Sequence record: SRR20825010_6051
Direction: 5' to 3' (one strand)
Length of the DNA stretch: 41,545 nucleotides
Shown here: positions 20,704 through 39,348 of the stretch, piece by piece
Layout of the letters: each line of letters opens with the position of its first letter
Numbering within the stretch: position 1 is the stretch's first letter
Notes under the pieces: generated by a model
The model's input: the letters and a program-made list of their open reading frames with translations, nothing else
The model's database searches: none
Told to the model about the DNA's origin: nothing
Made by a program: the position numbers and the translations under genes

Positions 20704-23700
20704 GTGTTCAAGCCCGCGTCAATCTGTTTTACGCATGTGCTCTACGGCAGCATGATCGCACTTGCGACGCTGTCGGCGTCCCAGCTGCGGGCCGGCGATT
20801 TCCTTCTGGACTGGAACGAGCTCGACTGGCCCACTGGGTCCACCGCAGCGCAGACTTACACGCTGACGGACCAGTACGGGTTCGAAGTGGACGCAACAAT
20901 CAATGTAACGGGCACTTTCACCAATTTCGGGACCCTTGTCACGCCGGATGAGACGAATACCTTTGGCGGCGGTGTGGGATCGCTGGCTTTTATCGTGGAC
21001 TCGCCTGCAAACCTTGGAAAGATCGGCGATTCAACAGCCAGAGCGCAGTTGAGCTTTACGTCGAATAGCATTCCTCTGCCAGTCAACGGGCTGCAGCTGG
21101 ACATCGTCGATGTCGACGCGGGGGATGCGAACACGACGATTGACCGCTGTGATTTCATCACCGTGACCGGCGACAACGGCGATCCGGCCCTGTCCGCGGT
21201 ATCGGCGACGCCCGTGTTTGTCCTGGGGCCTGGACCGGGCACCGGGACGACGGGCGTCATCGCCGCCAACCAGGCGCAATGTCTCTACATCGAAGGGCCT
21301 GTAGTGTCGCCGACCTCTAACAATGATGACAGGGGAACGGTCCGCGCGACATTTCCCGACAACACCTCGTCGGCGACCGTCATATATGACGAATCCATCG
21401 GCAATGTCAGAACCCAGCTCAGCTATGACCCCGCCGCACGGGGCATCGGCGTTCTGGCTGCAAGCGCCTTCACCGTCGGGCAGAGCATTTCGCTGGTCAA
21501 AACCTCGGACCCGTCCGAGCTTCCCGAACCGGGGACCACGATCACCTATACCTACTTTGTCACAAATGACGGGGTCCTGCCGTTCAACACCGGGCAGGAT
21601 ATCGTCATCCAGGACGATTCCGTTGCCACCGTGACCTGCCCGGCGATCACCGCCGACGTGCCGGTTGGCGGCACTCTTGAATGTACTGCGGAGTACACGG
21701 TGACCGTGGCGGATATCCTGAATGGCGGCCTAACCTCGACGGCGACGGCAGGTATCGGCCCGATCGGTCAGGCCTTTGACGACCGGCTGCAATCCGACGC
21801 CGAGACGCTGACGCTGCTCTATGCGCTGGGATATGATTTCGGCGATGCGCCTATCACCTATCTGGCGCCCTCGCACGCTATCGTGGTGTCTCCGACGGTC
21901 TACCTCGGCAACACGGCGCCCGATGCCGATGCCTTCACCCAGTCGAATCTGACAGCCACCGGCGACGACCTGTCGGACAGCGACGATGAAGATGGCGTTG
22001 CTCTGCCACTGCTCACCCAAGGCACGATTGTCACGATCACAGTCGATGTTGCGGGCGACGGTTATCTTCAGGCGTGGATGGACTTCAACGGTAACGGATT
22101 ATTCGAAAACGATGCCCTGGAGCGTCTGGCCACCGACCTGCGCGACGACGGAACGGGCGACGATCTCGTCGCCGGAGACGGTGAGATCCAGATCAGAGTA
22201 TCGGTGCCCGACGACGCCACCACATCACTGACCTTTGGTCGTTTCCGCTGGGCCTCCGAGGCCGGTCTTGGCATTTCGAACCCCACGCTGGATGGCGAGG
22301 TCGAGGATTATTCCTTTGTCATTGCCGCCGCCGATCTGGTCGACCGGGGCGACGCGCCTGCCAGCTATGGCGACCCGCGCCATATCGTGGTGCCGCTGAT
22401 ATATTTGGGCAACGCACTGCCCGATACCGAGACCTCGGACAGGTTTTCGGCCGATGCAGATGGCGACGATCTGTCCGGCATCGACGACGAAGACGCCACC
22501 AGCTTTCCGACACTGGCGGCGGGCGCCATCGTGCCGCTGACCGTGCTCACCCATGAAACGCTCAGCGTGCAGTTCGACCTGGGTTTGCCGGTTCTGGTGC
22601 CGGGCATCACCAACCTGCAGCTCTGGATCGACTACGACCAGAACGGTACGTTCGAGAGTGATGAACAGGTGGCGGTCGATTACCGCGATGGCGGCACCGG
22701 CGACACCGACGGTGTCTTCAACAACCAGATCACGCTGAACATCCCGGTGCCCACCGATATCGGCGACGGCGCCACCTATGCACGCCTGCGCTGGTCCACC
22801 ACCAGCGGCCTTGTCGCCGATCCGTTCGACGGACTGAACCTTGATGGCGAGGTTGAGGATTATCTTGTCACCCTGTCAAACCCCAGCAGCCCGCTTGCCG
22901 CGGATTTGTCGCTGACCAAAGCGGTGTTGCGTGCCTCTGATGGCCTGCCAACCACCTTGGCCACCGCCGGAGAAGCGCTGGACTTTGTCCTGACCGTCAC
23001 CAGTGACGGACCGGCTTCGGCCACCGGAATCCGGGTGCGGGATTTGATACCGAGTGGCTTTACCTATGTCTCGGACGATGCCGCCGCGCAGGGGGATACC
23101 TATGACGCCGATACCGGGATCTGGAATCTGGGCGATGTCCCCGCAGGCAGCAGCCATGCGCTGACCATTCGTGTCACCATGCGGGATAGCGGAAATCACA
23201 CCAACACCGCCGAGATCGTCGCCAGTTCGCTGCCCGATCCAGACAGTGATCCGGCCGGCGGCACCTTGGTGGATGACCTGTCCGACGGGCTGGCCGATGA
23301 TGACGAGGCATCCGTCACCGTGACGTACACCGGCACCGGCGCGACCCTCTCGGGCGTGGTCTTTCTCGATAATGGTGCGGGGGCCACAGCCTATGACGGT
23401 GTGCAGGGCGGGGCGGAAATCACCACCGACCGTGCCGTGGTCGAGGTCTATGACAGCGCCGGTGTTCTGCTTGGCGCCCCCGCTGTTGCCGCCGATGGCC
23501 GCTGGAGCCTGATCTTGCCCGATGGCTATATCGATGCGGTTACCGTCACTGTTCTGCCCGACGCAGGGCTGCGCCCCGTTTCGGAAACGGTCGCGGCGCT
23601 GCCGGGGATGGTGAATGCAGATCCCCGCGACGGAAGGTTTACGTTCACCCCGGCGGCGAGCACCTCTTACAACGATCTGAACTTTGGCCTGATCGTCGAG

Positions 23701-24423
23701 GCCCGGATGAATCTCGATCAGCAGGCGGCGATCCGCCCCGGTCAGGTCGTATCGCTTCGGCATGAATATGTCGCAGATTCCTCCAGCATAGTTGCTTTCG
23801 TCGTTGAAAACGAGACGAGCGCAAACCCCGGCGCGTTTTCTACCACGCTGTTTCTTGACACAGATTGCGACGGGTCAGGCGACACAGCGATCACCGCTCC
23901 GGTCGCCATTCAGGCCGGAACCCAGTTGTGCGTCGTCGCACGGGTGTCAGCCTCGTCGGCGGTCAGCCCGACCGCATCCTACAGCTTTGATCTGGTGGCC
24001 AATACCTCTTACGGAGCCTCGGGCCTGACCGAACAGGATCGCAACACCGACCGGGTGGCCGTAGAGTCCTCGCAAGGCGCGGTCAAACTGACCAAGACGG
24101 TGCGCAATGTAACCCAAGGCACCGCCGAAGGTGTTATCAACGGGGCGGGCGCCGGAGATGTGCTTGAATATCGTATCTACGTCCAAAACACCGGGTCCGT
24201 CCCGGCATCGGATATCATCATTTACGACAAGACGCCGCCTTACACCGCGCTTGCCGGCTCAGTGCCAAGCCCGATCAACCTGAGCAGCGGAGTAACTTGC
24301 AGCAGCGGCACACCGGGATCAGCCAGCAGTGGCTATGTCGGAAACTTGAGATGGGACTGTAGCGGACTGGTTCAGCCGGGGGACGAGGGATCTGTGTCCT
24401 TCACAGTAAGGGTTGCGCGTTGA
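20704..24423 (+). CDS. Secreted multidomain adhesin-like protein: N-terminal head, two GEVED domains, DUF11-type Ig domains, C-terminal truncated DUF11 domain
   Basis: GTG start after GAGGTGG; signal peptide MFKPASICF...SQLRA; DFGDAP...GEVEDY twice; DLSLTK...RDLIPSG...TNTAEI DUF11; C-terminal LTK...YDKTP...VSFTVRV. Confidence 0.85.
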   Translation: MFKPASICFTHVLYGSMIALATLSASQLRAGDFLLDWNELDWPTGSTAAQTYTLTDQYGFEVDATINVTGTFTNFGTLVTPDETNTFGGGVGSLAFIVDSPANLGKIGDSTARAQLSFTSNSIPLPVNGLQLDIVDVDAGDANTTIDRCDFITVTGDNGDPALSAVSATPVFVLGPGPGTGTTGVIAANQAQCLYIEGPVVSPTSNNDDRGTVRATFPDNTSSATVIYDESIGNVRTQLSYDPAARGIGVLAASAFTVGQSISLVKTSDPSELPEPGTTITYTYFVTNDGVLPFNTGQDIVIQDDSVATVTCPAITADVPVGGTLECTAEYTVTVADILNGGLTSTATAGIGPIGQAFDDRLQSDAETLTLLYALGYDFGDAPITYLAPSHAIVVSPTVYLGNTAPDADAFTQSNLTATGDDLSDSDDEDGVALPLLTQGTIVTITVDVAGDGYLQAWMDFNGNGLFENDALERLATDLRDDGTGDDLVAGDGEIQIRVSVPDDATTSLTFGRFRWASEAGLGISNPTLDGEVEDYSFVIAAADLVDRGDAPASYGDPRHIVVPLIYLGNALPDTETSDRFSADADGDDLSGIDDEDATSFPTLAAGAIVPLTVLTHETLSVQFDLGLPVLVPGITNLQLWIDYDQNGTFESDEQVAVDYRDGGTGDTDGVFNNQITLNIPVPTDIGDGATYARLRWSTTSGLVADPFDGLNLDGEVEDYLVTLSNPSSPLAADLSLTKAVLRASDGLPTTLATAGEALDFVLTVTSDGPASATGIRVRDLIPSGFTYVSDDAAAQGDTYDADTGIWNLGDVPAGSSHALTIRVTMRDSGNHTNTAEIVASSLPDPDSDPAGGTLVDDLSDGLADDDEASVTVTYTGTGATLSGVVFLDNGAGATAYDGVQGGAEITTDRAVVEVYDSAGVLLGAPAVAADGRWSLILPDGYIDAVTVTVLPDAGLRPVSETVAALPGMVNADPRDGRFTFTPAASTSYNDLNFGLIVEARMNLDQQAAIRPGQVVSLRHEYVADSSSIVAFVVENETSANPGAFSTTLFLDTDCDGSGDTAITAPVAIQAGTQLCVVARVSASSAVSPTASYSFDLVANTSYGASGLTEQDRNTDRVAVESSQGAVKLTKTVRNVTQGTAEGVINGAGAGDVLEYRIYVQNTGSVPASDIIIYDKTPPYTALAGSVPSPINLSSGVTCSSGTPGSASSGYVGNLRWDCSGLVQPGDEGSVSFTVRVAR

Positions 24424-24499
24424 TCATATAAGCACCGTTCCAGCATAAGTCGTTGTACAGCGCGCGCATTGGGCGGCATCATCCAAGGGGCGTGCGACA

Positions 24500-24625: not shown

Positions 24626-24639
24626 AGATGCGACACCGC

Positions 24640-25044: not shown

Positions 25045-25305
25045 TCAGCGGCGCTTTGTGAATTGGGCGGAGTAGCCGTTTTCCGGCGCCGCAGGACGGG
25101 ACCGGGCCAGCCTCCGGGTTTTGATCATCGCCGCAGGCATCAGAAAACCTAACGAGCTGGCAAGAGAGGCAAAGAAGTAGGCCGGGAAAATACGCGTCCC
25201 CACAGCAAGCAACAGAACGAAAGTGACAAAACCCAAGGCGAGGGTGCAGACCAGCGCAGCCCCCATGAGAGGGTGCTCGTGATCGGCATTGGCGTCGTTT
25301 TTCAT
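25045..25305 (-). CDS. Small hypothetical membrane protein (two predicted TM helices)
   Basis: MKNDANADHEHPLMGAALVCTLALGFVTFVLLLAVG...YFFASLASSLGFLM; GGAG upstream of ATG. Confidence 0.5.
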   Translation of the reverse strand: MKNDANADHEHPLMGAALVCTLALGFVTFVLLLAVGTRIFPAYFFASLASSLGFLMPAAMIKTRRLARSRPAAPENGYSAQFTKRR

Positions 25306-25897
25306 GGCATGCTCCGGGCTGGTTGCGGGACATAACATCCTTAACGGGCCATCAGCCGTCCTTCTCCGGTTCCAAAGTATCTGCCAAACGGCCAAAGCCT
25401 ATCGTGTTAGCCTTTCGTACACGGGGGCAGCGCCGGACGAGGCGATGTCCCGCATCCCGGAAACCGTTATGGGTCTGTTCGCGATATCCGCCGACACCAT
25501 CTATGGGATCAGCGGATTGACCGAGCAGATCAGCAACACCGGCGTGGTCCGCGTCGAACGCTCGGGCGGGTGACTGGAGCCACGCAAGACCGTCCAAAAC
25601 CTGACGCAAGGCGCCCCGGAAGGAGTCAGCAGCGGGGCCACGTCGGGCGGTGGTCGTGAGTATCTCATCTATCTGGAAAACCCCGGCCAACAGCCTGCAA
25701 CCCAGATCGTGATCCACGACCGGACACCGCCCTGTACCGAACTGGCTTCGAGCATTCCCAGCCCGGTGCCAGCCCGGTCAACGTCGGCAACAACTGGGTT
25801 TGCACCCTGATTGAGCCAGCGTCGAACGCTGCGGGTTGGACCAGGCGCGGGCCCGCCCCGCAAGACAGCAGTGAAGCCTACCACCTGAGAGACCTGC

Positions 25898-26111: not shown

Positions 26112-28667
26112 CTATCTGTCGGAGAGAACTTGCTGCCATGCCGTCTGGGCGGCTTCGCAAGCAGGGGCAAGGTTGAGCATCACCTGCCTCAGACGATCTG
26201 TCTGCCCAAGTTTGCAGGCTTGTTCGATATCGCGCAGCAAATGCTGCAACCGCAACGCGCCCATCATGCCGCTGATGCCGGAAAAGGTGTGGGCTGCGGA
26301 TTGCGTCTCATCAAGATCGCCCCGCGCCGCGGCCCTTTCAAGATCATCCTTGAGAGCGCTTGCGTTCTGCCAGAATTCCTCCACATGCCGGGACAGGTCG
26401 TCATGCTCGAAAAGAGCCTGCAGGTCCGCGACCTGCTCGGGGTTGAGAACCCGCTCCGGGGCGGTCTCTGCGCTTTTGTCAAAGGCCTCGGGCCCGCTGC
26501 GATACTCTTTTTGCAAGCAATCGATCAGCGCCCGACGGCTGACCGGCTTCAGCAGATAGCCCGACATTCCCGCCTCGCGAAAAGCGTCTTGTTCGTCTGG
26601 CAAGGCATGGGCGGTGAAGGCCACGATCGGCGTGTCCCGATTGGGGCCTTCTTGTCCGCGGATCGCCCGAGAAGCCTGGGTACCGTTGATGCCCGGCATG
26701 GAAATGTCCATCAGGATCAGGTCGAAAGGCTGGTCGAGCGCGGCCCTGATCGCGGCCTCTCCGCCATCGGCGGTATCGCTCCTGTACCCGGACATGGCCA
26801 GCATTTTCACCATGAGATCCCGGTTGATCTGGTTGTCGTCGACCACAAGGATGTGCTTTTCCTCGGCATGGGCAGCACCGTGCAGCGAAAGCTCGTCTTT
26901 TGCGTCCCGCACCACCAGATCTGTCTCTTGTATCGGCAGGTCCAGGATGAAAGTCGCGCCTTCCCCGATCTCGGATTCGCAGCGCAAACTGCCACCCAGC
27001 CGATCGACGAAACGGCGCACGATGCCCAGTCCCAAGCCCGTTCCGCCGGTTCGGCGTTCATAGCGGTCATCCAGAGAGACAAAATCCTCGAAGATCCGGG
27101 CCTGGTCTTCGGGGGCGATGCCGATTCCTGTATCGCTGACTTCGAAACGAAGGCGGTTTTGGCCGGCCTCGTCGCCGGAAGCCATATAGCTAACGAAAAG
27201 CGACACCGCCCCTTCGGGAGAAAACTTGATCGCGTTACTCAGAAGATTGATCAGGATCTGTTGCAGGGATCTTGGCACCGTCATGAAATGTCGGCCTGCG
27301 ATGCCCTTGCATTGCAGGTCCAGCTCCACGTTCATGCTCTTGGCCATCGGGTCCAACATCGCGATCATGTTCGAGACCAGGGCGTGGACATCGCAGGCCT
27401 CGGTTGCCATCCCCTGCCCATCTTCGCTGCGTTCGATGGCAAGCACATCGTTAATATGGGACATCAAGACATCGCCCGAGAACAGCGCCGTGTTAAGATG
27501 CGTCTTCTGCTCGGCGGTCAGCGGGCTTTCTTCCATCAGGTAGAGCGACGATAGGACACCGTTCAGCGGGGTGCGCATCTCGTGGCTCATCATGGCAAAG
27601 AAGCGCGAGCGTTCTTTGACCGCCGAAAGCGCCGCATCCCGGGCCTTGGTCAGGTCGGCCTCATGTTGCTTTTCGCTGGAGATGTCCCTGAAGAAGGAGA
27701 TGAAGATGGGCCCAGTGCTCATCTGCGCGGTGGTGATCTGAGCCTGCGCGGGAAACGTCGATCCATCCGCGCGCATCATGCAGAATTCATGAACACCGCC
27801 ATCGGCAAAGGTCTTCCGTCCGGTTTCTTGATATTTCTTCAGGCTCTGCTCGACCGTCTCGCGTTCCGCCGGGGGAAAGAGCAATTCGATTACGAATTTC
27901 CCAAAAGCCTGCCTTTTGTTGTAACCAAAGATCTCTTCGGCCCCGGTGTTGAAGTCGATCACCCGACCCATGCCGTCGGCGACCACGATTCCACCAAGCG
28001 CCCCATCCAGGGTCGCCCGCAGTTGTCTCTGTTTTTCTTCGGCCGCGATCGAAGCGCGGCGCATCGATTGGGTCCGCTTTTGCAAGAAGAAAATCGTCAG
28101 GGCCATGGCCAGCGTACTGAGCACGATGACGATCATCATCACTTCCAGAAGAGATACGATCCGCTTCCGCTGAAGAGCCTGCTTCTCGGTCTCCTCCCGT
28201 ATCGCCCCGAGCGCGATGCTTCGGCTGAGATGCGCCTGTTCGAGTAGAGTTCTCTCGAAGTCTGGCAAGCCCGCGACAAGCTGTTCATCCTGCCCGTCGA
28301 TCAGGGCAATGTGATCGTCCAGCATGCGTTGCAGGGATGCGAGGTTTGTCTGGGCCTCGGGGGTCAAATTCTCTCCCGAGAACAACGGGAGTCGGCTGTA
28401 GAGCAGGTCAAAGCGTTTGCGCACTTCTGGCAGGTCGGGGTCTTCTGCTTCGACCTCGTTCCTGAGGACAACAAGCAGCTTGAGATACTCGACCTCGACC
28501 TGCGCCGCGCGCCAGGCAATCTGATCACCCTGTGCCACGCCCAGAAGGCGGACGTTGTCGCGCACGACAAGGGATAACCCCAGCATGAAGACAAGCGCCA
28601 GGATTGCCAGGCCGGTCAGGGTAAACCGCTCTTTTCCAATCCCGGCACCCTTGTCGGTTCGCTCCAT
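26112..28667 (-). CDS. Hybrid sensor histidine kinase (2 TM, periplasmic domain, PAS, HisKA, HATPase, REC, Hpt)
   Basis: MSHEMRTPLNG, NLLSNAIKF, DTGIGI, GTGLGL, LILMDISMPG, Hpt AAHTFSG; start MERTDKG chosen because the longer ORF overlaps the upstream gene. Confidence 0.93.
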   Translation of the reverse strand: MERTDKGAGIGKERFTLTGLAILALVFMLGLSLVVRDNVRLLGVAQGDQIAWRAAQVEVEYLKLLVVLRNEVEAEDPDLPEVRKRFDLLYSRLPLFSGENLTPEAQTNLASLQRMLDDHIALIDGQDEQLVAGLPDFERTLLEQAHLSRSIALGAIREETEKQALQRKRIVSLLEVMMIVIVLSTLAMALTIFFLQKRTQSMRRASIAAEEKQRQLRATLDGALGGIVVADGMGRVIDFNTGAEEIFGYNKRQAFGKFVIELLFPPAERETVEQSLKKYQETGRKTFADGGVHEFCMMRADGSTFPAQAQITTAQMSTGPIFISFFRDISSEKQHEADLTKARDAALSAVKERSRFFAMMSHEMRTPLNGVLSSLYLMEESPLTAEQKTHLNTALFSGDVLMSHINDVLAIERSEDGQGMATEACDVHALVSNMIAMLDPMAKSMNVELDLQCKGIAGRHFMTVPRSLQQILINLLSNAIKFSPEGAVSLFVSYMASGDEAGQNRLRFEVSDTGIGIAPEDQARIFEDFVSLDDRYERRTGGTGLGLGIVRRFVDRLGGSLRCESEIGEGATFILDLPIQETDLVVRDAKDELSLHGAAHAEEKHILVVDDNQINRDLMVKMLAMSGYRSDTADGGEAAIRAALDQPFDLILMDISMPGINGTQASRAIRGQEGPNRDTPIVAFTAHALPDEQDAFREAGMSGYLLKPVSRRALIDCLQKEYRSGPEAFDKSAETAPERVLNPEQVADLQALFEHDDLSRHVEEFWQNASALKDDLERAAARGDLDETQSAAHTFSGISGMMGALRLQHLLRDIEQACKLGQTDRLRQVMLNLAPACEAAQTAWQQVLSDR

Positions 28668-28689
28668 GTACGCCCCGAAATGCAGAGGG

Positions 28690-29160
28690 TTATTGCTCAA
28701 CTCTGAGGCGATCCATCTGCCATATTGAACGGGAGTAGACAACCTCAACCTGATATTTCGTATTGTCGTCGTAGGGATAGACCAACCAAAGCGGCCCCTT
28801 TCCCCGGCGGGACATTGGCGCGCCATTCTGATGATAGGCGACGATTGGTGCGGTGTCCTCGATCTCGTCCAGAGGTATATCGACGCTGTAATCATTGATG
28901 GCTTGCGCCGTGATGGTGCCTTCAGACACCCCCAACTCCTTCAAGAGGGCCGCCAGAGGCACACCTTCAAAGGTCTGGGGCCCCTCTGTCCAGATGGTTT
29001 TGGTGACGAAGCTCTCTACGGGCATGGCCTGAAGCTCTTCGAGCGTGAAGCTATGAACCGTGCCATTGATGGTGGCGGTCAGCATGGCTGTTCCGTCAGC
29101 TTGCGCAAAACATGCAAGCCCCATGACGGCCCCACCCGCGACACAGGAAAGTAGGCGCAT
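28690..29160 (-). CDS. Small periplasmic protein with molybdopterin-oxidoreductase-like (Oxidored_molyb) fold
   Basis: Signal peptide ...CFAQA; TKTIWTEG..FEGVPL, AINDYSV, RGKGPLWLVYPYD, SIWQ. Confidence 0.8.
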   Translation of the reverse strand: MRLLSCVAGGAVMGLACFAQADGTAMLTATINGTVHSFTLEELQAMPVESFVTKTIWTEGPQTFEGVPLAALLKELGVSEGTITAQAINDYSVDIPLDEIEDTAPIVAYHQNGAPMSRRGKGPLWLVYPYDDNTKYQVEVVYSRSIWQMDRLRVEQ

Positions 29161-29343
29161 CTCTTTTCCCTTTGCGTGGTTTCGACAGAAACACTTTAGT
29201 TTTACGGGAAAGTATCAGCATGGTAGATTAAGGATAACGGCATATGCGTAAGCATATAAGTATGCCCAAAGGCCTATACTCCAGTGTGCCAACGACAGGA
29301 TAGGCTCGAAACGCAAGAATCAGCAGGCAGGATCCGAATAGGC

Positions 29344-33555: not shown

Positions 33556-36500
33556 ATGCGCAGTTTTCTTCGCTTTGCCCGTCTGGGAGTGACCAGTTTT
33601 CTTGTCCTCACAGCTGTCATCCTGTCTCTTGCCCTGACGACTGACACCTCGGCATCCCCACAGCCAGCCGGGTCCATCATCCGCAACATTGCCCAGGTCA
33701 CCTATTTCGACACGGAACGCGGTATATTGGTCACCCTCGAGTCCAACGCCGTCGAAGCCCGCATCAGCGTGGTTCCGGCTTTCGAGGTTTCCGGACGCGA
33801 CGTGCTGCTTCTGGCCCGCGGGGCCCTTGATCAGTTCACCTTCCGCATCAGAAACACCGGCAATATCACGCTGGAGGTCACACCTACCCTTTCCGCATCC
33901 GGGGCAGTGAATCTGCGCCTGAACCCGCGGCTCTTTGTCGATCTCAATGGCAACGGTGTCGTCGACGCGGGGGAGCCGGAACTCTCAGAGGCCGATACCC
34001 TCGAGATCGCGACCGGGCTGTATGTCGATGTGATCCACACCTTTCAGGTGGCCCCGGGCGCAGGCCCCGGCGAGACCTTTGACGTCACCCTGAACGCCAG
34101 CGCCCGGCCAATCTTCACCACTGACCCCGATGGCGAGGGGGAGGTCTCTCGCATCACCGGCGAAGGTCTTGGCCGGGTTGAGATCGTTTCGGCCACGCTG
34201 GAGATCACCAAGTCGCAGGCGCTGCAGCCCGGCGCCGACCAGACCCGCGTGCTCTACCAGCTGGGACTGCGCAACGACTCTGACGCGCCCGTCGCGGGCT
34301 ACTCCGAAATCGACGGTATGCCGTTGCGCATCGACGACACCGTCGTGACAGGGGTTTTGCTGCGCGACGCGATCCCGCTGAACGCGCGCTTCGACCGCAT
34401 CGACGCCACCGCCGGGCTGACCGCGCTCTACCACCGCGCTGGCAACCCCGAGCATCACTACACCACCGCCGCGCCCGCCAAAGCCACAGAGATCGACGCC
34501 GTGGCCTTCTTCTTTGCCGGCGACTTCCCGATGGGGTATGCGGCCGATCTGGGCTTTTCGGTCATCGTCGATGCCGCTCTGGGCACGGTCGAGGTCGACA
34601 ACACGGCCCGCGCCTTTCTGCCCGCCACGGATGGCGTGGCCCAGATCCTGTCAAACCGGGTGAGCACCGCGCTCTACCCAAGCGCAGAGGGCGCGATGGG
34701 TTTCATCGATCCCGACAGCCGCCTGAATGTCGCAACCAGTGAACTGGACAGCAACCTGATCACGCGACTGGTGTCTGGCGCCTGCAACCTGACCACGGGG
34801 ATCGACACCATCGAGGTCACGCTGCAAAGCCTGCACAGCGGCGATATCGAAGTCTCGATCGCACGCGAAACCGGTCCCAACACCGGGGTCTTTGAAATCG
34901 CATCGCTGCCGGTCACCGAAATGGCCGTGCCGCGCACACGGGACGGCGTCATGGCGTCTTACCGGGGTGACACCATCCGCGCCGAGGCACGCTGCGGTGG
35001 CCAGTTGCTGACCGCCAGCCTCCTGATCGCGCCGGGCAACTTCGTCTTCGACGCGATCACCAACGATCCGGTCGAGGGCGTTGGCGTGTCCCTGATCGAC
35101 GCCTCCACCAGCATCGAGGTGGCGCGCGTAGAGACTGACGCTCGCGGCTATTTTGCCTTTGGCGACATCGAGGCGGGGACGTACAGATATGAGATCGTCG
35201 AGGCCCCGGAATGGAGTTTTCCCTCCGTACGGGCCGATTTCCGCGGCTTTGGCCGGATCATCACCGATGCGGCCTTCGGCGGCGGCTTTGCCCATTCCGG
35301 CGGCTTGCTGAGCGATTCTGACATCCCGGTCGATCCTTTCTACGGCGTTCCGGTGGCGCTGCAAAAGTCCGCCGACCGTGAGCGGGTGACGCAGGGCGCA
35401 TTCGTGACCTACACGCTGGAGCTGACCAACAACATGCGTCAGGCGCTGGTCGGTGCCGAGATCTTCGACCGCGCACCCTATGGGCTGAGCCTCGTCAAGG
35501 GTTCGGTGACGCTGGATGGCGCGCGCATCGGTGATCCGACCCGCGACCGCGACGGCGATCTGCTCTTTTCGATCGGTGATATCGCCCCGTTGGACATCGT
35601 CGAACTCAGCTACGTCATGTCCGTGGGCGCGGCCGCCCGCGAGGGCAAGCTTGAGAACACCGCCCTGCTTTCTGGCCGGCAGGCAGGCACCGGCACTTTG
35701 ATGCAATCGGCCCCGGCGCGCGCCATGGTGCGGCTGGACAATTCCGGCGGTGTTTTTTCCCGCCAGGGCACGGTTGTCGGCACGGTTTTCATGGATTGCG
35801 ACGGCAATGGCATTCAGGGCGACTGGCGCGAGCCGGGCATTCCCGGCGTGCGCATCGTCACCCAGGAAGGTCTGTTCGTGGTCACGGACCGCAACGGCAA
35901 GTACTCTCTGCCCGGGATGCGTCCTGTGACCCATGCCTTTCAGGTTCAGGCCGCCACGCTGCCCGAGGGCACCAAGGTCACCGTGACCCGCACCAACGAC
36001 CTGCGTCGCGGCGGATCGCGAATCGTGCCCCTGCGCCGAGGCGAATTGCGGACCGAGAATTTTGCGGTCGAGGCCTGCACCCCCGCAGCGCTGTCCGAGA
36101 TCAAGGTCCGCCGCATCCATTTCGACACCACGACGGCCCCCGACACGCTACGCGCGACAGATATGCCCATCGAAGGCGCGCGCAACCCGCAACGCTCGAC
36201 CCGCATCGAGGCCGGTGTTTCGACCACCACGCAACTGAGCACTGCCATGATGGCGGCCATGCAGGCCGAAAAGGACGGAAAGGCAGGACCGGACGGGGCG
36301 GTTTCACCGCGGCGCGCGGCGCTGAGCGTCAAGGCCCGCACCGCGCGCCGCCCGCTCGAATCCATGGTCAAATCGCTCGATCCGGAGCCCGGATTTATCG
36401 ACATCAAGGATGGCGATATCCTGACCCACCGCACCCAGAACATCCGGGTGAAGGGCAAGGCTGACCTGACGCTGGGCCTGTTGCTGAACGGCCGTGCCAT

Positions 36501-39348
36501 GGGTCGCGACCGCGTCGGTGAGCAGACCAGCTGGGCACCGCGCAACGTGCAGGCCGCAGAGTTCGTCGCGGTCAAGCTGCGCCCCGGCGACAACAGGTTG
36601 ACGCTGGTCGGTCGGGATGGCTTTGGCATCGAGCGGATGCGCCACGAAATCACTGTGACCGCCCCCGGCGACCCGGCGCGGATCGAGATCACCACCCCCG
36701 CCGAGGCCAGCGCCGACCCGGTCACTGGCGTGCCTGTGGTGGTGCGTATCCTTGACGCGCGTGGCCTGCCGGTGCCAGCCTCGGCCACCGTGACGCTGGG
36801 CGCGGACCGCGCGCTGTGGGACGTGACCGACATCCGCCCCGGCACCCCCGGCGTGCAGGCCTATATCGACAATGGCGAGGCGACCTTTACCCTGATCCCG
36901 CCGCAGGTTTCGGGCCCCGACCTGGTGACCGTGACCAGCGGCTTTGCCAAGGCCGAGGCGCGCATTGTCTTCACCCCCAATCTGGATGAGCGCATCATGA
37001 TCGGCGTGATCGAAGGCGCCGTCTCTCTGGGGGGAAAGACCGGTGGCGCGCTGCTGGACAAGGATGAGTTCAACCACTTCGAGGAAACCGCCACCGGCCT
37101 GCGCGGTGAGCTCTACCTCAAGGGTGCGATCCGCGGCGATGCCTTGCTGACACTGCGCTACAGCTCTGATCAGGACACGGAGGACCGGCTGTTCCGCGAC
37201 ATCCGCAGCGACGAATACTACCCGGTCTACGGTGACAACTCTGAACGCGGCTGGGACGCACAGTCTGCGTCGAACCTCTACATCAAGGTCGAGAAGGGCC
37301 GGTCCTACGTCCTTTATGGCGATATCGCGATCCAGCCCGAGGCACCGTCGTTCAAGCTGGGCGGGATGCAGCGCGTGGCCACCGGGGCCAAGGCCCACTG
37401 GGAAAACGACCGCGTTGCCGTCACTGTCTTTGCCGCCCGCACCGCGCAAGAGCAGCAGATCGTTGAATTCGCCGGACGCGGTATCTCAGGTCCCTATGAC
37501 CTGACCCTCGACGGGTACGTTGACGGCTCCGAGCGAGTCGAGATCCTGGTCCGCGACGAGGACGGCGGCGACATCATCAGCACCACCTCGCTGCGGCGGG
37601 GAACAGACTACATCCTGGATTTTTTCCGCGACACGATCACCTTTGACGACCCGGTCCGCCAGTTTGACTTTGACGGCAATCCGGTTTCGGTCCGCGTGAC
37701 CTACGAGGTCGAGCGCGCGGACGCCGAACGCTATTGGCTCTATGGGGGCGAGGTGAACTATGCCGCCAGTGACCGCACCAGCCTCGGCGTCCGCGCGGTG
37801 CATGCCGACGCCCGCCGCGGCAATCCGGCCCGCCAGCGCCTGCAATCGGCATATGTGCGTCACGAAACCCTTGGGGGTGGTGTCTGGGAGGCCGAGATCG
37901 CTCGGTCCGTGGACCAGGATGAGGTCAGCGATACCGCGCTACGTCTGTCCTATGACATCCGGACCGAGACAGAGCGGCTGTCTTTCGAGGCAATCCACAC
38001 CGGGCGCGATTTCATGTTCGGGGGGCTGGCGCGCCCGGGAACCACTCAAATGCGCCTGGCCTACGGGCTCGAGATCGACCGAAAGAGCGACCTGCAACTG
38101 GCGGCGGAATATGTCCGTGACCGTTATAAAGACAGTGCGCGCACCGCGCTGGACGCAACTTACTCCCGCCGTTTCAGCGAGGGGTTCCGCGGCGATATCG
38201 GCTTGGAATTGGCCCGCACCGACCGCGAGGGTCGCGTCGACGATCAGGTGGCCCTGCTGTTGGGCGGCCAGTGGACCCCGACAAACCGCGCGGGCGTCTC
38301 GATGCGCGCCCTGCTACGCCTGCCCTTCGCAGGTGACAACCGTGATCCGGCAGAGCTGACCTTGGGCATGACCCACGACGTCAAGCCCGGCTGGCGCGTC
38401 CACAACGAGATGGAGCTGAGCTTTGGCGATGACATGCTGATGACCCGCGCCCGCTATGGCATGGAATACCAGCTGAACGATTGGTTGTCGGGCACCACCG
38501 ATTTCAGTCGGGCCTCTGGCGAAGCCGAGGAAACCTGGCATCAGGGCATCGCGGCGGTTTGGCAGGTCAACGATCTGACGACCCTGCGCACCGACATCGA
38601 GCATTCGCGCGGCGCGCAGACAGGGTCGGACGCGCTGACCAGCATCGCGCTGGGGGCCAAGTGGCACGATGGCTTGGAATCGCTTGTCGGCGACGCGGAT
38701 TTCGATGTCACCTTCGAAGACGAGGGCAACACTTACTATGCCAGCCTCGGCATGGCAGCGCAGGTGAACGAGGATTGGACGGTGTTGGGCCGCACCCGCA
38801 TCGCCATCGACCAGCGCAACGGCGACGACCACCTGCGCACCCGGACCCGCATGGGCGCCTCTTATCGCCCGGTCAAAGACCCGCGTCTGGATGTGCTGGC
38901 GTGGTATGAGCATCGGCTGGACGAAAAGCACGGCCGCACCGAGACGCATTTGTGGTCCGTCGACGCCAGCTATGAGGCCGATGAGGATCTGCGTCTAAAC
39001 GGCAAGTATGCCGGTCAGCATCAGGCGGTTTCGGGCAATGGCTTTGCTGCGACAACCACCACACAGCTGGTTCAGGCCGGCGCCTATATCGATTTTGCCG
39101 ACGACCGGTTCCAGCTTGGCCTGAATGCGGCGAGCCTCTGGGACAGCCGCGGCGGCAGCACCACCGGTGTGGGGGCCGAGATAGGGTTCTCTCCCGCAGA
39201 GGGAGCCTTGCTGGCCATCGGCTACAACGCCGTCGATTCCCGCGTCGCGGGGATGTCTGACCTCTATCAGGATGGCGTGTACTTCCGCTTCAACCTGCTG
39301 CTGGACGACAGCCTGTGGGATCGATTGGACGGGTTTCTTGGCGATTGA
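33556..39348 (+). CDS. Large outer-membrane protein: DUF11 and SdrD-B/Ig domains plus a large C-terminal predicted beta-barrel
   Basis: AAGGAG RBS; signal peptide; two complete DUF11 domains; GTVFMDCDGNG...PGIPGV...TDRNGKYS; long amphipathic beta-strand region ending GVYFRFNL. Confidence 0.85.
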   Translation: MRSFLRFARLGVTSFLVLTAVILSLALTTDTSASPQPAGSIIRNIAQVTYFDTERGILVTLESNAVEARISVVPAFEVSGRDVLLLARGALDQFTFRIRNTGNITLEVTPTLSASGAVNLRLNPRLFVDLNGNGVVDAGEPELSEADTLEIATGLYVDVIHTFQVAPGAGPGETFDVTLNASARPIFTTDPDGEGEVSRITGEGLGRVEIVSATLEITKSQALQPGADQTRVLYQLGLRNDSDAPVAGYSEIDGMPLRIDDTVVTGVLLRDAIPLNARFDRIDATAGLTALYHRAGNPEHHYTTAAPAKATEIDAVAFFFAGDFPMGYAADLGFSVIVDAALGTVEVDNTARAFLPATDGVAQILSNRVSTALYPSAEGAMGFIDPDSRLNVATSELDSNLITRLVSGACNLTTGIDTIEVTLQSLHSGDIEVSIARETGPNTGVFEIASLPVTEMAVPRTRDGVMASYRGDTIRAEARCGGQLLTASLLIAPGNFVFDAITNDPVEGVGVSLIDASTSIEVARVETDARGYFAFGDIEAGTYRYEIVEAPEWSFPSVRADFRGFGRIITDAAFGGGFAHSGGLLSDSDIPVDPFYGVPVALQKSADRERVTQGAFVTYTLELTNNMRQALVGAEIFDRAPYGLSLVKGSVTLDGARIGDPTRDRDGDLLFSIGDIAPLDIVELSYVMSVGAAAREGKLENTALLSGRQAGTGTLMQSAPARAMVRLDNSGGVFSRQGTVVGTVFMDCDGNGIQGDWREPGIPGVRIVTQEGLFVVTDRNGKYSLPGMRPVTHAFQVQAATLPEGTKVTVTRTNDLRRGGSRIVPLRRGELRTENFAVEACTPAALSEIKVRRIHFDTTTAPDTLRATDMPIEGARNPQRSTRIEAGVSTTTQLSTAMMAAMQAEKDGKAGPDGAVSPRRAALSVKARTARRPLESMVKSLDPEPGFIDIKDGDILTHRTQNIRVKGKADLTLGLLLNGRAMGRDRVGEQTSWAPRNVQAAEFVAVKLRPGDNRLTLVGRDGFGIERMRHEITVTAPGDPARIEITTPAEASADPVTGVPVVVRILDARGLPVPASATVTLGADRALWDVTDIRPGTPGVQAYIDNGEATFTLIPPQVSGPDLVTVTSGFAKAEARIVFTPNLDERIMIGVIEGAVSLGGKTGGALLDKDEFNHFEETATGLRGELYLKGAIRGDALLTLRYSSDQDTEDRLFRDIRSDEYYPVYGDNSERGWDAQSASNLYIKVEKGRSYVLYGDIAIQPEAPSFKLGGMQRVATGAKAHWENDRVAVTVFAARTAQEQQIVEFAGRGISGPYDLTLDGYVDGSERVEILVRDEDGGDIISTTSLRRGTDYILDFFRDTITFDDPVRQFDFDGNPVSVRVTYEVERADAERYWLYGGEVNYAASDRTSLGVRAVHADARRGNPARQRLQSAYVRHETLGGGVWEAEIARSVDQDEVSDTALRLSYDIRTETERLSFEAIHTGRDFMFGGLARPGTTQMRLAYGLEIDRKSDLQLAAEYVRDRYKDSARTALDATYSRRFSEGFRGDIGLELARTDREGRVDDQVALLLGGQWTPTNRAGVSMRALLRLPFAGDNRDPAELTLGMTHDVKPGWRVHNEMELSFGDDMLMTRARYGMEYQLNDWLSGTTDFSRASGEAEETWHQGIAAVWQVNDLTTLRTDIEHSRGAQTGSDALTSIALGAKWHDGLESLVGDADFDVTFEDEGNTYYASLGMAAQVNEDWTVLGRTRIAIDQRNGDDHLRTRTRMGASYRPVKDPRLDVLAWYEHRLDEKHGRTETHLWSVDASYEADEDLRLNGKYAGQHQAVSGNGFAATTTTQLVQAGAYIDFADDRFQLGLNAASLWDSRGGSTTGVGAEIGFSPAEGALLAIGYNAVDSRVAGMSDLYQDGVYFRFNLLLDDSLWDRLDGFLGD

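What the first reader, a model, noticed from the sequence alone, without database searches (positions are those of the whole stretch)
20704..39348. Candidate donor-strand-complemented, isopeptide-crosslinked DUF11 pilus system in a Gram-negative bacterium
Seen: complete DUF11 domains here run L/IxK...D-x-x-P/D...F/YxxxV/I and then end in two strands, 'G-x(2-3)-N-x-A...S-N/A-x-x-x-x-V/L' (e.g. AGVLTNVAS...SNTASVTV inside the 880-aa protein). Three proteins END with a DUF11 domain cut off just before those strands: 880-aa TLTK(33141)...SDAAP(33288)...LEFTVQVED*; 1239-aa KLTK(24094)...YDKTP(24226)...VSFTVRVAR*; 170-aa ...SYRVRVN*. Two proteins BEGIN, right after the signal peptide, with the missing piece: AGSVIGN(30924)QAVATY...SNTVETVV (880-aa) and AGSIIRN(33685)IAQVTY...SNAVEARI (1930-aa). 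Known: DUF11/CnaA-like domains form autocatalytic Lys-Asn isopeptide bonds using a nearby acidic residue, and chaperone-usher pili polymerise by donor-strand complementation. Inference: acceptor-only = tip adhesin, donor+acceptor = self-polymerising shaft, donor-only + OM barrel = base. The Lys-Asn bond would then form BETWEEN subunits, giving a sortase-free covalent fibre. I do not know of a mechanistic description of this, but could not search the literature.
Basis: partly seen in the sequence, partly recalled or inferred. Interest (0 to 1): 0.92.

Follow-up and report, generated by a model that had tools for sequence, protein, structure and literature searches.

The report
Split-domain covalent pilus candidate in diderms
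A conserved gene set in marine Roseobacter-group bacteria, and in many other double-membraned bacteria, appears to build a surface fibre by snapping together halves of one adhesin domain carried on different proteins, probably locking each joint with a self-made covalent bond.

Summary
The 880-aa and 1239-aa proteins end in a DUF11/CLIPPER domain that stops at Pfam profile position 84 of 114. An internal copy runs to position 113. The 880-aa and 1930-aa proteins begin, just after the signal peptide, with an Asn-bearing two-strand peptide. A complex prediction docks the 880-aa N-peptide into its own C-terminal domain: ipSAE 0.88, best control 0.00. In the monomer model the same peptide is unplaced. 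Lys775, Asp824 and Asn36 are invariant in 53 homologues. The pattern (tip acceptor only, shaft both, base donor only plus a large C-terminal barrel) holds in all 52 loci with a complete shaft gene, across Rhodobacterales, Balneolaceae, Limnohabitans and Thermus. Distant Pseudomonadota carry one to three short pilin-like versions. The base barrel family spans 2195 clusters. The 170-aa protein is a core gene that mostly lacks the Asp; I propose it is a non-covalent donor cap. The covalent bond, polymerisation and export route are inferred. The principle is already shown in Clostridium BsaA and proposed from cryo-EM density in archaeal threads. This would be a new variant in a new fold and envelope.

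The parts
20629..24423 (+). Tip protein (1264 aa from the ATG at 20629, or 1239 aa from the GTG at 20704). It has a variable N-terminal head with DUF7507, two GEVED domains and one complete DUF11. It has no N-terminal donor.
   Evidence: Pfam: DUF11 93.1 bits, GEVED 79.5, DUF7507 77.1. The donor HMM does not match it; the acceptor HMM matches at its C-terminus. Only about the last 500 aa are conserved in homologues, whose length (874-1983 aa) and position vary.
24055..24420 (+). C-terminal acceptor half-domain of the tip: Lys at 24094, Asp at 24226, ending ...SFTVRVAR*.
   Evidence: The Asp column is D in 18 of 18 tip C-domains. The Lys is seen by eye in all 18 printed C-termini; hmmalign placed it two columns off.
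25289..25573 (+). Short ORF inside a 1.7-kb stretch without a clear gene (24424-26111). It contains a stretch that resembles the conserved segment just before the tip's acceptor domain, and may be a remnant of another tip gene.
   Evidence: Seen by eye; not tested further.
26112..28895 (-). Hybrid sensor histidine kinase (PAS, HisKA, HATPase_c, receiver, Hpt). Likely a regulator of the locus.
   Evidence: Pfam. A homologue occupies the same position in most Rhodobacterales loci.
28690..29160 (-). Small secreted protein of 156 aa with a molybdopterin-binding-like domain, next to the kinase.
   Evidence: Pfam Oxidored_molyb, 33.6 bits. Conserved beside the kinase.
29284..29964 (+). LuxR/GerE-type response regulator.
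   Evidence: Pfam Response_reg 72.5 bits and GerE 57.7 bits. Conserved upstream of the core operon.
30206..30772 (+). Small core protein (188-aa ORF; 170 aa from Met19, the length of its homologues). It has a signal peptide and one truncated DUF11-like domain without the Lys or Asp. Proposed to be a non-covalent cap or chaperone for donor strands.
   Evidence: The acceptor HMM matches up to its C-terminus. Asp column: A 44, L 4, G 2 of 50. It lies directly upstream of the shaft gene in 51 of 52 loci. DUF11 is only sub-threshold (14.5 bits; TIGR01451 17.4 bits).
30819..33461 (+). Shaft protein (880 aa): signal peptide, donor, a string of Ig-like domains, and an acceptor.
30897..31016 (+). Donor peptide of the shaft (residues 27-66): two strands, with Asn36 (30924) in the first and Ser54-Asn55 in the second.
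   Evidence: Nearly invariant in 120 homologues of 67-100% identity. Asn36 and Asn55 are N in 52 of 52 rows. pLDDT is below 50 to 69 in the monomer model and 89-90 in the complex.
33102..33458 (+). Acceptor half-domain of the shaft (residues 762-880): Lys775 (33141), Asp824 (33288) and four invariant Cys.
   Evidence: Pfam DUF11 profile positions 9-84 of 114. Invariant columns. Predicted contacts: residues 817-825 pair with donor residues 36-43; the Lys775 strand pairs with donor residues 52-59; Lys775 touches Ala38.
33556..39348 (+). Base protein (1930 aa): signal peptide, donor, a stalk (DUF7925-like, CarboxypepD_reg, DUF11, SdrD_B) and a C-terminal outer-membrane barrel module. It has no C-terminal acceptor.
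33655..33774 (+). Donor peptide of the base (residues 34-73), with Asn44 at 33685.
   Evidence: The donor HMM hits the first 160 aa of 87 of 119 base-family representatives of at least 1500 aa, against 3 of 119 for the rest of those proteins.
36856..39345 (+). C-terminal module of the base (residues 1101-1930). It holds an Ig-like domain, a highly conserved but unfolded segment (base residues about 1161-1242), and about 32 membrane-length beta-strands (base residues 1376-1916).
   Evidence: AlphaFold2 model: mean pLDDT 75.2, pTM 0.64. Family of 2195 clusters at E<=0.001. Only generic outer-membrane barrel matches were found.
39553..40254 (+). Conserved downstream 233-aa secreted protein. It may be a lytic transglycosylase, but the evidence is very weak.
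   Evidence: A homologue lies downstream of the base gene in most Rhodobacterales loci. Pfam SLT scores E 0.17 and 11.9 bits, below the cut-off of 21.3.

Best explanation
The locus encodes a modular surface fibre whose subunits are joined by complementation of a split CLIPPER (DUF11, CnaA-like) domain.

The tip and the shaft each end in a half-domain. This half-domain carries the first-strand Lys and the catalytic Asp but lacks the last two strands. The shaft and the base each begin, right after signal-peptide cleavage, with those two strands; the first of them carries the Asn.

Inserting a donor into the preceding subunit's acceptor rebuilds one complete Ig-like domain. This gives the order tip <- shaft (one or several copies) <- base, with every subunit running N-terminus outward. 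The base holds the fibre in the outer membrane through a very large C-terminal beta-barrel.

By analogy with intact CLIPPER domains, the rebuilt core should bring Lys775, Asp824 and Asn36 together, so that a Lys-Asn isopeptide forms spontaneously between chains without a sortase.

The small protein encoded first in the core operon has the same truncated fold but usually lacks the Asp, and in this lineage also the Lys. I infer that it binds donor strands reversibly in the periplasm, as a cap or chaperone working with the opposite polarity to PapD/FimC.

Status of each step:
- Shown in silico: the split, its complementarity and its conservation.
- Inferred: trans rather than cis pairing for the shaft, the covalent bond, polymerisation, the role of the small protein, and export through the base barrel.
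For: 1. Truncation. The terminal domain matches DUF11 profile positions 9-84 of 114 and the protein then ends. An internal domain of the same protein matches positions 10-113. hhalign puts the terminal domain on the first 129 of 163 columns of the internal domain, with Lys on Lys and Asp on Asp, leaving 34 residues unmatched (weak, E 0.049).

2. Complementarity. The complex of residues 762-880 with residues 27-66 scored ipSAE 0.88/0.88/0.87 against a best control of 0.00. Partner pLDDT was 89-90 and at least 95% of contacts agreed between runs. The mark was reached by 51 of 78 solved complexes and 2 of 108 mismatched pairs. Donor strand 36-43 pairs with the Asp824 strand. Donor strand 52-59 pairs with the Lys775 strand. 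Lys775 touches Ala38, two residues from Asn36 on the same face. This fits the CnaA rule that the bond links the first and the penultimate strand on opposing sheets (PMC12617251, passages read).

3. The donor is an orphan in the monomer. In the AlphaFold2 model of the whole 880-aa protein, residues 1-36 and 55-66 have pLDDT below 50 and blocks 31-50 average 52-69, while the mean is 80.

4. Conservation.
- Lys775, Asp824, Asn36 and Asn55 are invariant in 53 homologues.
- The donor peptide is nearly identical in 120 homologues of 67-100% identity. It stays recognisable in Balneolaceae, Limnohabitans, Neomegalonema and Thermus at 28-49% overall identity.
- The Asp column is D in 54 of 54 shaft and 18 of 18 tip C-domains, and in 15 of 15 short pilin-like ORFs of distant loci.

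5. Architecture rule. In 52 loci with a complete shaft gene, the shaft has donor plus acceptor. The small gene lies directly upstream in 51 of 52. A donor-only ORF follows in 49 of 52; the three misses show the motif by eye. No donor-HMM hit was internal to any protein.

6. Breadth.
- The base barrel module has 2195 representative clusters at E<=0.001 and 621 at E<=1e-30.
- The donor HMM hits the N-terminus of 87 of 119 full-length representatives, against 3 of 119 elsewhere in those proteins.
- 48 of 401 sampled Pseudomonadota genomes carry the barrel module.

7. Of 12 distant loci, 7 by HMM and 3 more by eye have one to three short ORFs (329-476 aa) with an N-terminal donor-like motif and a C-terminal acceptor, directly upstream of the barrel protein. 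A small protein was flagged in 7 of the 12. This is the layout of a pilus operon.

8. Intact DUF11/CLIPPER forms a Lys-Asn bond with a nearby Asp (PDB 9IFR, PMC12617251, passages read).
Against: - No coordinates were returned, so the Lys775-Asn36 distance was not measured. Asn36 is not among the 25 best-defined contacts, although it lies in the interface list.
- The predictor tends to pass halves of a split fold by likeness to solved intact domains. The pass therefore shows that the two pieces look like one CnaA-type domain. It does not show that they meet in trans or in a cell, and it cannot tell which donor goes with which acceptor.
- Sequence tools alone do not equate the donor with the last two strands. 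Pfam finds no DUF11 match in either donor peptide (0 of 2). hhalign aligned the donor to a different part of the internal domain. The donor HMM follows an internal acceptor-HMM match in only 14 of 352 cases at i-E<=10 and 4 of 352 at <=0.1, against 0 of 352 in a shifted control window.
- Asn36 is not universal in base proteins: N in 47 of 52 locus copies and 73 of 88 representatives. Some joints may be non-covalent.
- A complete acceptor-only gene longer than 700 aa lies within 10 kb in only 16 of 52 loci. Several others run off the fetched stretch.
- Two of 8 distant small proteins keep the Asp, which weakens the idea that the small protein never cross-links.
- Two of 12 distant barrel loci (L068, L069) have no donor or acceptor at all.
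- The terminal domain's own Pfam score (19.1 bits) is below the cut-off of 24.6.
Confidence: 0.62

Rival explanations
1. A fixed three-part adhesin rather than a polymer. One tip, one shaft and one base join by the same split-domain complementation, covalent or not. The shaft acts as a single extension piece, and the donor-acceptor pairs are specific (shaft donor to tip, base donor to shaft).
For: All the complementation evidence fits this equally well. At 880 aa the shaft is long for a repeating pilin. Only one donor-plus-acceptor gene is present in this lineage. The homotypic pass cannot tell close cousins apart, by the tool's own calibration.
Against: Distant loci carry two or three short donor-plus-acceptor paralogues of 329-476 aa, as in operons with major and minor pilins. 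The shaft donor docks confidently into the shaft's own acceptor.
Confidence: 0.2
2. Complementation in cis. The shaft's N-terminal strands fold back into its own C-terminal domain, closing the protein into a ring or hairpin. Only the tip and the base need a partner in trans.
For: The same donor and acceptor lie in one chain, and the complex prediction used pieces of one protein. CnaA folds tolerate large insertions within loops (PMC12617251, passage read).
Against: The whole-protein AlphaFold2 model does not place the donor with confidence: pLDDT is below 50 for residues 1-36 and 55-66. Donor-only and acceptor-only proteins exist in every locus and cannot be satisfied in cis. The order of the pieces (Asn strands first, Lys and Asp strands last) is the reverse of an intact domain, so a cis joint would require the seven-or-so intervening domains to loop back.
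Confidence: 0.08
3. Ordinary independent fibrillar adhesins. The conserved N-terminal peptide is a sorting or secretion signal, and the short C-terminal domains are merely degenerate Ig-like domains. No inter-protein joint forms.
For: Pfam does not recognise the donor peptide as DUF11. The terminal domain is below the Pfam cut-off. The export route is unknown.
Against: The N-peptide is predicted to complete the terminal domain strand for strand, with controls at 0.00. The Lys and Asp are invariant in exactly these terminal domains. The donor-only, both and acceptor-only pattern matches gene roles in 52 loci and across phyla.
Confidence: 0.07

Closest known systems
Clostridium perfringens BsaA fibres (TasA family): 'donor-strand exchange and lock' (PMC11580942, preprint; abstract and passages read)
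   Same: The N-terminal segment of one subunit inserts as a strand into the next subunit. An Asn on the donor and a Lys on the acceptor, with a nearby acidic residue, then form an autocatalytic intermolecular isopeptide. No sortase is involved.
   Different: BsaA has a TasA-type fold and a Glu catalyst, comes from a Gram-positive cell, and forms a homopolymer anchored at the cytoplasmic membrane and matured by SipW. Here a CnaA-like CLIPPER domain is split, two strands are donated, the catalyst is Asp, and the parts are a tip, a shaft and a base with an outer-membrane barrel. Pfam found no TasA/peptidase M73 family in the four proteins.
Chaperone-usher pili (type 1, P pili)
   Same: The logic and polarity are the same. 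The tip adhesin has only an acceptor groove. Shaft subunits have an N-terminal donor plus a groove. The last subunit donates but does not accept. The operon also encodes a small periplasmic helper and a large outer-membrane barrel protein.
   Different: There is no homology: Pfam found no PapD-like chaperone, usher or fimbrial pilin family in the four proteins. Two strands are donated rather than one. A Lys-Asp-Asn triad for a covalent lock is present. The terminal donor subunit is fused to the barrel. The small helper resembles an acceptor rather than a strand donor. The barrel has about 32 strands by DSSP, compared with the usher's 24 (recalled).
Archaeal threads of Sulfolobus acidocaldarius (Saci_0406; PMC9715654, abstract and passages read)
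   Same: Head-to-tail subunits are joined by donor-strand complementation plus a proposed covalent inter-subunit isopeptide. A putative cap protein is encoded alongside.
   Different: The thread bond links Asn57 to the N-terminal alpha-amine of subunit n+2, not Lys to Asn within one rebuilt domain. The fold is different, the organism is an archaeon, and there is no outer membrane or barrel.
Intact CLIPPER/DUF11 domains of fibrillar adhesins (PDB 9IFR; PMC12617251, abstract and passages read)
   Same: The domain family is the same, with the same Lys (first strand), Asp and Asn (penultimate strand) triad. Complete copies occur inside the tip, shaft and base proteins here.
   Different: In 9IFR and in the survey the bond is intramolecular, within one chain. 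Here the terminal copies are split between polypeptides, so the same chemistry would join two proteins.
Sortase-assembled pili of Gram-positive bacteria
   Same: A covalent fibre of Ig-like (Cna-type) subunits arranged as tip, shaft and base.
   Different: In those pili the inter-subunit bond is made by a sortase between an LPXTG threonine and a pilin-motif lysine. Here the C-termini lack LPXTG, and the bond would be autocatalytic inside a rebuilt domain.
SpyTag/SpyCatcher (engineered split CnaB2 domain; recalled, not looked up)
   Same: A peptide carrying one bond partner docks as a strand into a truncated Cna-type domain carrying the other partner and the catalytic acid, and an isopeptide forms spontaneously.
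   Different: That pair is man-made, derives from a CnaB fold and forms a Lys-Asp bond. This would be a natural CnaA-type counterpart used to build fibres.

Membership tests
CLIPPER / DUF11 (PF01345, TIGR01451) | Match to the family profile above the curated cut-off | tested here: met
   Pfam DUF11: tip 93.1 bits and base 33.0 bits (cut-off 24.6). TIGR01451: tip 60.7, shaft 39.8, base 39.1 bits (cut-off 24). The split terminal domain of the shaft alone scores 19.1 bits and the small protein 14.5-17.4 bits; both are below the cut-offs.
CLIPPER / DUF11 (PF01345, TIGR01451) | Lys on the first strand, catalytic Asp, and Asn on the penultimate strand | tested here: met
   Lys775 and Asp824 in the acceptor and Asn36 in the first donor strand are invariant in 53 homologues. 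The residues are present; their geometry and the bond itself could not be tested.
CLIPPER / DUF11 (PF01345, TIGR01451) | A complete domain within one polypeptide (intramolecular bond) | tested here: not met
   The terminal copies stop at profile position 84 of 114 and the protein ends there. Internal copies are complete. The terminal copies are therefore split members of the family, not canonical ones.
Chaperone-usher pili | PapD-like chaperone, usher and fimbrial pilin families | tested here: not met
   None of these Pfam families appears among the hits for the tip, small, shaft, base or downstream proteins. In the fold search the usher PapC (Z 11.2) ranks among many generic barrels, which is inconclusive for fold.
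Chaperone-usher pili | An N-terminal donor strand completes the previous subunit's incomplete Ig fold; the tip lacks a donor | tested here: met
   This is a functional likeness only.
Sortase-dependent pili | C-terminal LPXTG sorting signal and a pilus sortase | tested here: not met
   The tip, shaft and small proteins end ...FTVRVAR...FTVQVED and ...YRVRVN, with no LPXTG or hydrophobic tail. The window was not searched for a sortase gene.
TasA/BsaA donor-strand-exchange fibres | TasA (peptidase M73-like) fold with an Asn-Glu-Lys triad; SipW signal peptidase | tested here: not met
   No such Pfam family appears among the hits. The acid here is Asp, in a DUF11 fold. SipW was not searched for.
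Classical (type Va) autotransporters | C-terminal 12-stranded barrel (PF03797) that exports its own N-terminal passenger | tested here: not met
   No autotransporter Pfam hit. The model has about 32 strands in residues 276-816 of the module. Autotransporter barrels appear only as weak partial matches (Z 9.7). Whether the stalk passes through the barrel could not be tested.
Type V pili of Bacteroidota (FimA/Mfa1) | Lipoprotein pilin precursors whose strand exchange is triggered by a protease | tested here: not met
   No FimA/Mfa family hit. The signal peptides end in Ala-x-Ala-type sites, with no lipobox Cys. The protease requirement was not tested.

The most novel reading that the evidence does not exclude
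This is a previously unrecognised and widespread class of pilus in double-membraned bacteria, present in Pseudomonadota, Balneolaceae and Thermus. Its subunits are natural split-Cna 'tag and catcher' pairs that polymerise tip-first and lock themselves with autocatalytic Lys-Asn bonds. The roughly 32-stranded barrel of the base protein serves both as the export pore and as the final anchored subunit. The small Asp-less half-domain is a new kind of periplasmic chaperone that holds donor strands, the reverse of PapD/FimC.
Probability: 0.35. Interest if true: 0.93.

Novelty: new variant of a known kind. Interest (0 to 1): 0.86.

Why it matters
If the prediction holds, double-membraned bacteria have a route to covalently linked surface fibres that needs no sortase. 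The fibres would be built from a split version of a very common adhesin domain.

This would explain a large, unannotated family. The base barrel module has 2195 representative clusters and occurs in 48 of 401 sampled Pseudomonadota genomes. Its members are currently labelled 'NEW3 domain-containing', 'beta strand repeat-containing' or 'hypothetical'.

It would add a further pilus assembly principle to the list in current reviews. A review of October 2026 names chaperone-usher, type IV, curli and sortase pathways in the passages read.

It would also supply natural, orthogonal peptide-protein ligation pairs. And it would raise a direct question about how folded, cross-linked subunits cross the outer membrane.

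Thermus thermophilus HB8 carries a copy on plasmid pTT27. It is widely used as a laboratory model (recalled), so the question is open to experiment.

Tried and rejected
- The window's own assembly is not held, so the rest of the genome could not be searched for further tips or a secretion system.
- Sequence searches of solved structures found nothing useful. The shaft gave one chance hit (E 0.89), the tip none, and the tip's DUF11 only chance hits. 9IFR was not retrieved, so the Lys/Asp/Asn mapping rests on the paper's text and on the internal domains.
- hhalign of the donor against the internal domain gave an alignment to the wrong region.
- Pfam on the two bare donor peptides gave no DUF11 match.
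- Fold searches of the barrel model returned only generic outer-membrane barrels. Foldseek gave MtrB, LptD and SlpA at TM 0.2-0.31. VIA gave Z up to 13.5 with high rmsd. No family can be named.
- The fold search of the whole shaft model returned only generic tandem Ig-like arrays.
- ESM Atlas look-ups gave unnamed clusters or clusters labelled DUF11.
- The listing of cluster members returned no names for 10 base-family representatives.
- No RNA holder was listed by the look-up of sequencing runs. Read laying was therefore not used, and relative expression of shaft and base could not be compared.
- Only one complex-prediction job was allowed. The following were not tried: shaft donor with tip acceptor, base donor with shaft acceptor, and either donor with the small protein.
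- An OmpA-like domain after the barrel in Balneolaceae bases is only sub-threshold: E 8.6e-4 and 4.4e-3 in 2 of 3, below the cut-off.
- The SLT match of the downstream 233-aa protein is far below threshold.
- Supplementary tables of PMC12617251 could not be opened. They may list predicted isopeptide domains of these proteins.


Full report
**What is in the sequence**

Four plus-strand genes carry the feature:
- A 1239/1264-aa protein (20629/20704-24423), called the tip here.
- A 188-aa ORF (30206-30772; 170 aa from Met19), called the small protein.
- An 880-aa protein (30819-33461), called the shaft.
- A 1930-aa protein (33556-39348), called the base.

Between the tip and the small protein lie a hybrid histidine kinase, a small molybdopterin-domain protein and a LuxR-type response regulator.

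Every residue and coordinate in the finding checks: K at 33141, D at 33288, K at 24094, D at 24226, N at 30924 and N at 33685.

Pfam and NCBIfam place all the large proteins in DUF11/TIGR01451. A 2025 survey renamed this family CLIPPER and showed it to be a CnaA-like domain with an intramolecular Lys-Asn isopeptide and a nearby Asp (PDB 9IFR: Lys715, Asp748, Asn806; PMC12617251, abstract and passages read).

**Is the terminal domain really cut short?**

The C-terminal DUF11 match of the shaft covers residues 793-878 against profile positions 9-84 of 114, and the protein ends at residue 880. An internal domain of the same protein (residues 185-349) matches positions 10-113. About 30 profile positions, which correspond to the last two strands, are therefore missing at the end.

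A profile-profile alignment puts the terminal domain on the first 129 of 163 columns of the internal domain. Lys aligns with Lys, Asp with Asp, and ...LEFTVQVED with ...VTFQARIAA. This leaves 34 residues unmatched. The score is weak (E 0.049), because the alignments are shallow.

Sequence tools do not by themselves equate the N-terminal peptide with those 34 residues:
- hhalign aligned it elsewhere.
- Pfam found no DUF11 match in either bare donor peptide.
- An HMM built only from N-terminal donors follows an internal acceptor-HMM match in 14 of 352 cases at i-E<=10 and in 4 at <=0.1. A shifted control window gave 0 of 352. Clear examples are P0147, P0156 and P0179.

S-N-x-V) is visible by eye, but it needed support from structure.

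**Structure prediction**

- Scores were ipSAE 0.88, 0.88 and 0.87, against a best of 0.00 from three controls.
- Partner pLDDT was 89-90, and the runs agreed in at least 95% of contacts.
- The mark was reached by 51 of 78 solved complexes and 2 of 108 mismatched pairs.

The contacts are those of strand complementation. Donor residues 36-43 pair with the strand that bears Asp824 (822-40, 820-42). Donor residues 52-59 pair with the strand that bears Lys775 (775-54/55/57). Lys775 also touches Ala38, two residues from Asn36 on the same face. This fits the rule quoted in PMC12617251 that CnaA-type bonds join the first and penultimate strands on opposing sheets, and it makes Asn36 the candidate rather than Asn55.

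Two cautions apply. The tool warns that halves of a split fold can pass by likeness to solved intact domains. The pass therefore shows that the pieces look like one Cna-type domain, not that they meet in trans or in a cell. No coordinates were returned, so the Lys-Asn distance is unmeasured.

In the AlphaFold2 model of the whole 880-aa protein (53-sequence alignment, mean pLDDT 80.1), residues 1-36 and 55-66 are below 50 and the blocks between them average 52-69. The donor is not confidently packed on its neighbouring domain or anywhere else in the monomer.

**Conservation**

The shaft has 260 database relatives at E<=0.001. The best 120 listed (67-100% identity, 809-898 aa) come from Rhodobacteraceae: Sulfitobacter, Phaeobacter, Salipiger, Thioclava and others. 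They are annotated 'NEW3 domain-containing' or 'beta strand repeat-containing'.
- In 53 aligned homologues, Lys775, Asp824, Asn36, Asn55 and four Cys of the terminal domain are invariant. Mean column identity is 79%.
- The donor peptide is almost letter-identical in all 120.

A scan of species-representative genomes, seeded by donor-peptide patterns, returned 51 loci. These include Neomegalonema (46-49% identity), Balneolaceae (31-35%) and Limnohabitans (28-30%). Plasmid records added Pacificitalea and Thermus brockianus and thermophilus.

HMMs for donor and acceptor were built by iteration on all ORFs of these loci. The rule holds in every one of the 52 sources with a complete shaft gene. That count includes the window, and L001 duplicates L012.
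- The shaft has an N-terminal donor and a C-terminal acceptor.
- The small gene lies directly upstream in 51 of 52. The exception is an ORF-calling gap in L053.
- A donor-only ORF follows in 49 of 52. L043 and the two Thermus loci show the motif only by eye.
- No donor hit was internal to any protein.

Column counts:
- The Asp column is D in 54 of 54 shaft and 18 of 18 tip terminal domains.
- The Lys column is K in 51 of 54 shaft rows. The others include ORFs cut short.
- For the tips, hmmalign misplaced the Lys by two columns. All 18 printed C-termini nevertheless show it.
- Donor columns: Asn36 is N in 52 of 52 shafts, 47 of 52 bases and 73 of 88 base-family representatives. Asn55 is N in 52 of 52, 52 of 52 and 83 of 88.

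Tips vary in length (874-1983 aa), strand and position, and only about their last 500 residues are conserved. This suits an exchangeable head on a conserved connector. A complete acceptor-only gene lies within 10 kb in only 16 of 52 loci.

**The base and its family**

The C-terminal 830 residues of the base have 2195 representative clusters at E<=0.001 and 621 at <=1e-30. Most of these proteins are 1900-2400 aa, with the module at the C-terminus.
- The donor HMM hits the first 160 residues of 87 of 119 representatives of at least 1500 aa. It hits the much longer remainder of those proteins in 3 of 119. An N-terminal donor is therefore a hallmark of the family.
- The module was found in 48 of 401 sampled genomes of the phylum, and in 29 of 212 genera.
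- It was found in only 1 of 41 relatives of the nearest held genome, and in none of 10 congeners. One copy sits on a 55-kb plasmid. The distribution is patchy.

The AlphaFold2 model of the module (41-sequence alignment, pLDDT 75.2, pTM 0.64) has 32 strands of membrane length between model residues 276 and 816. Fold searches return only generic large outer-membrane barrels, including MtrB, LptD, SlpA, porins and PapC among many others. No family can be named, and whether the strands close into one barrel was not verified.

In Thermus, the stalk that bears the donor and the barrel are separate genes.

**Distant loci look like pilus operons**

I fetched about 17 kb around 12 distant barrel genes.
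- Seven by HMM and three more by eye have, directly upstream of the barrel protein, one to three short ORFs of 329-476 aa. Each has a donor-like N-terminus after the signal peptide and a C-terminal acceptor ending F-x-V-x-V. A small protein of 159-210 aa was flagged in seven of the 12 loci.
- All 15 such short ORFs have Asp at the catalytic column.
- The base N-termini in these loci show the I/V-x-N-x-A ... S/T-N motif by eye.
- Two loci (L068, L069) differ. They have a giant adhesin without a donor, next to a separate barrel.

The presence of several short donor-plus-acceptor paralogues favours polymerising pilins over a fixed three-part adhesin, at least in those lineages.

**The small protein**

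It is the first gene of the conserved core and has a Sec signal peptide without a lipobox Cys. The acceptor HMM matches it up to its last residues.
- At the Asp column it has Ala in 44, Leu in 4 and Gly in 2 of 50 copies. It has no conserved Lys.
- In the distant loci it has Asn in 6 and Asp in 2 of 8 copies.

A truncated acceptor that mostly cannot catalyse the bond suggests a reversible binder of donor strands, that is, a cap or chaperone with the opposite polarity to PapD/FimC. This is an inference, and no binding prediction could be run.

**Mechanism proposed**

- Shown in silico: the domain is split, the two pieces are complementary, the triad is conserved, and the donor/acceptor pattern follows gene role across phyla.
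- Inferred from the chemistry of intact CLIPPER domains: a spontaneous Lys775-Asn36 bond aided by Asp824.
- Inferred from architecture: the order tip <- shaft(n) <- base, with each subunit's N-terminus pointing outward. This is the polarity of chaperone-usher pili.
- Open: where assembly happens, how the tip and shaft cross the outer membrane, and what the invariant but unmodelled segment of the base does. That segment covers model residues 61-142, has pLDDT below 30 and contains 16 invariant columns. A passage through the roughly 32-stranded barrel is my guess.

**Comparison with what is known**

The principle is already shown or proposed elsewhere.
- C. perfringens BsaA polymerises by donor-strand exchange followed by an Asn35-Lys74 isopeptide catalysed by Glu56. 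This was shown by mutagenesis, and over 100 relatives keep the triad (PMC11580942, passages read).
- Sulfolobus threads combine donor-strand complementation with a proposed Asn57-to-N-terminus bond (PMC9715654).

Those systems use different folds and belong to single-membraned cells. Six full-text searches found no description of a split DUF11/CLIPPER domain, or of an autocatalytic inter-subunit isopeptide fibre in double-membraned bacteria. The pilus passages I read in a review of October 2026 name only chaperone-usher, type IV, sortase and curli pathways. The library lacks most subscription journals, and supplements were closed.

**Verdict**

I rate it a new variant of a known kind (donor-strand exchange with a covalent lock) in a new fold, a new envelope and a large uncharacterised family. 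Confidence in the stated mechanism is 0.62 and interest is 0.86.

Noticed in passing
window 24424-26111, especially the ORF 25289-25573 (+): A 1.7-kb stretch after the tip gene has no convincing gene. One short ORF in it carries a stretch that resembles the conserved segment just upstream of the tip's acceptor domain. It may be a remnant of a replaced tip gene, which would fit the variable tips seen elsewhere.
   Followed up: no
window 39553-40254 (+): A 233-aa secreted protein is conserved downstream of the base gene in most Rhodobacterales loci. Its only Pfam lead is a far sub-threshold SLT transglycosylase match (E 0.17). A peptidoglycan-cutting helper is possible but unsupported.
   Followed up: partly
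window 26112-29964: A hybrid histidine kinase, a small molybdopterin-binding-domain protein and a LuxR-type response regulator sit between the tip and the core operon. The same trio lies beside the core operon in most Rhodobacterales loci and on the Pacificitalea plasmid. It is probably a dedicated regulator set.
   Followed up: partly
window about 37036-37281 (base residues about 1161-1242): This is the most conserved stretch of the base C-terminal module, with 16 invariant columns in 41 sequences. AlphaFold2 models it at pLDDT 22-29. It may fold only against a partner or inside the barrel.
   Followed up: no
L054 (Thermus brockianus pTB1) 9426-20764; L055 (T. thermophilus HB8 pTT27) 7290-18659: Thermus plasmids carry the same gene order: small, shaft, then base. 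There the base is split into a stalk protein of about 875-900 aa with a donor-like N-terminus and a separate barrel protein of about 1800 aa. Another DUF11 gene follows.
   Followed up: partly
L045, L046, L048 (Balneolaceae), last about 240 aa of the base proteins: These bases are about 450 aa longer. In 2 of 3 their C-terminal tails give sub-threshold OmpA-family matches (E 8.6e-4 and 4.4e-3). This hints at a peptidoglycan-binding tail after the barrel.
   Followed up: partly
L068 and L069 (unnamed Pseudomonadota genomes): Two barrel-family loci lack both donor and acceptor. A 2570-2958-aa adhesin with several internal DUF11-like domains lies directly upstream of a separate barrel protein of about 1150 aa. 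This may be an unsplit or differently coupled relative of the system.
   Followed up: no
whole window versus nearest genome G001: The window shares 35% of its sampled words with the nearest held genome. That genome and 9 congeners nevertheless lack the shaft gene; only 1 of 41 relatives has it. A close copy lies on a 55-kb plasmid in Pacificitalea. The locus behaves like a mobile island.
   Followed up: partly
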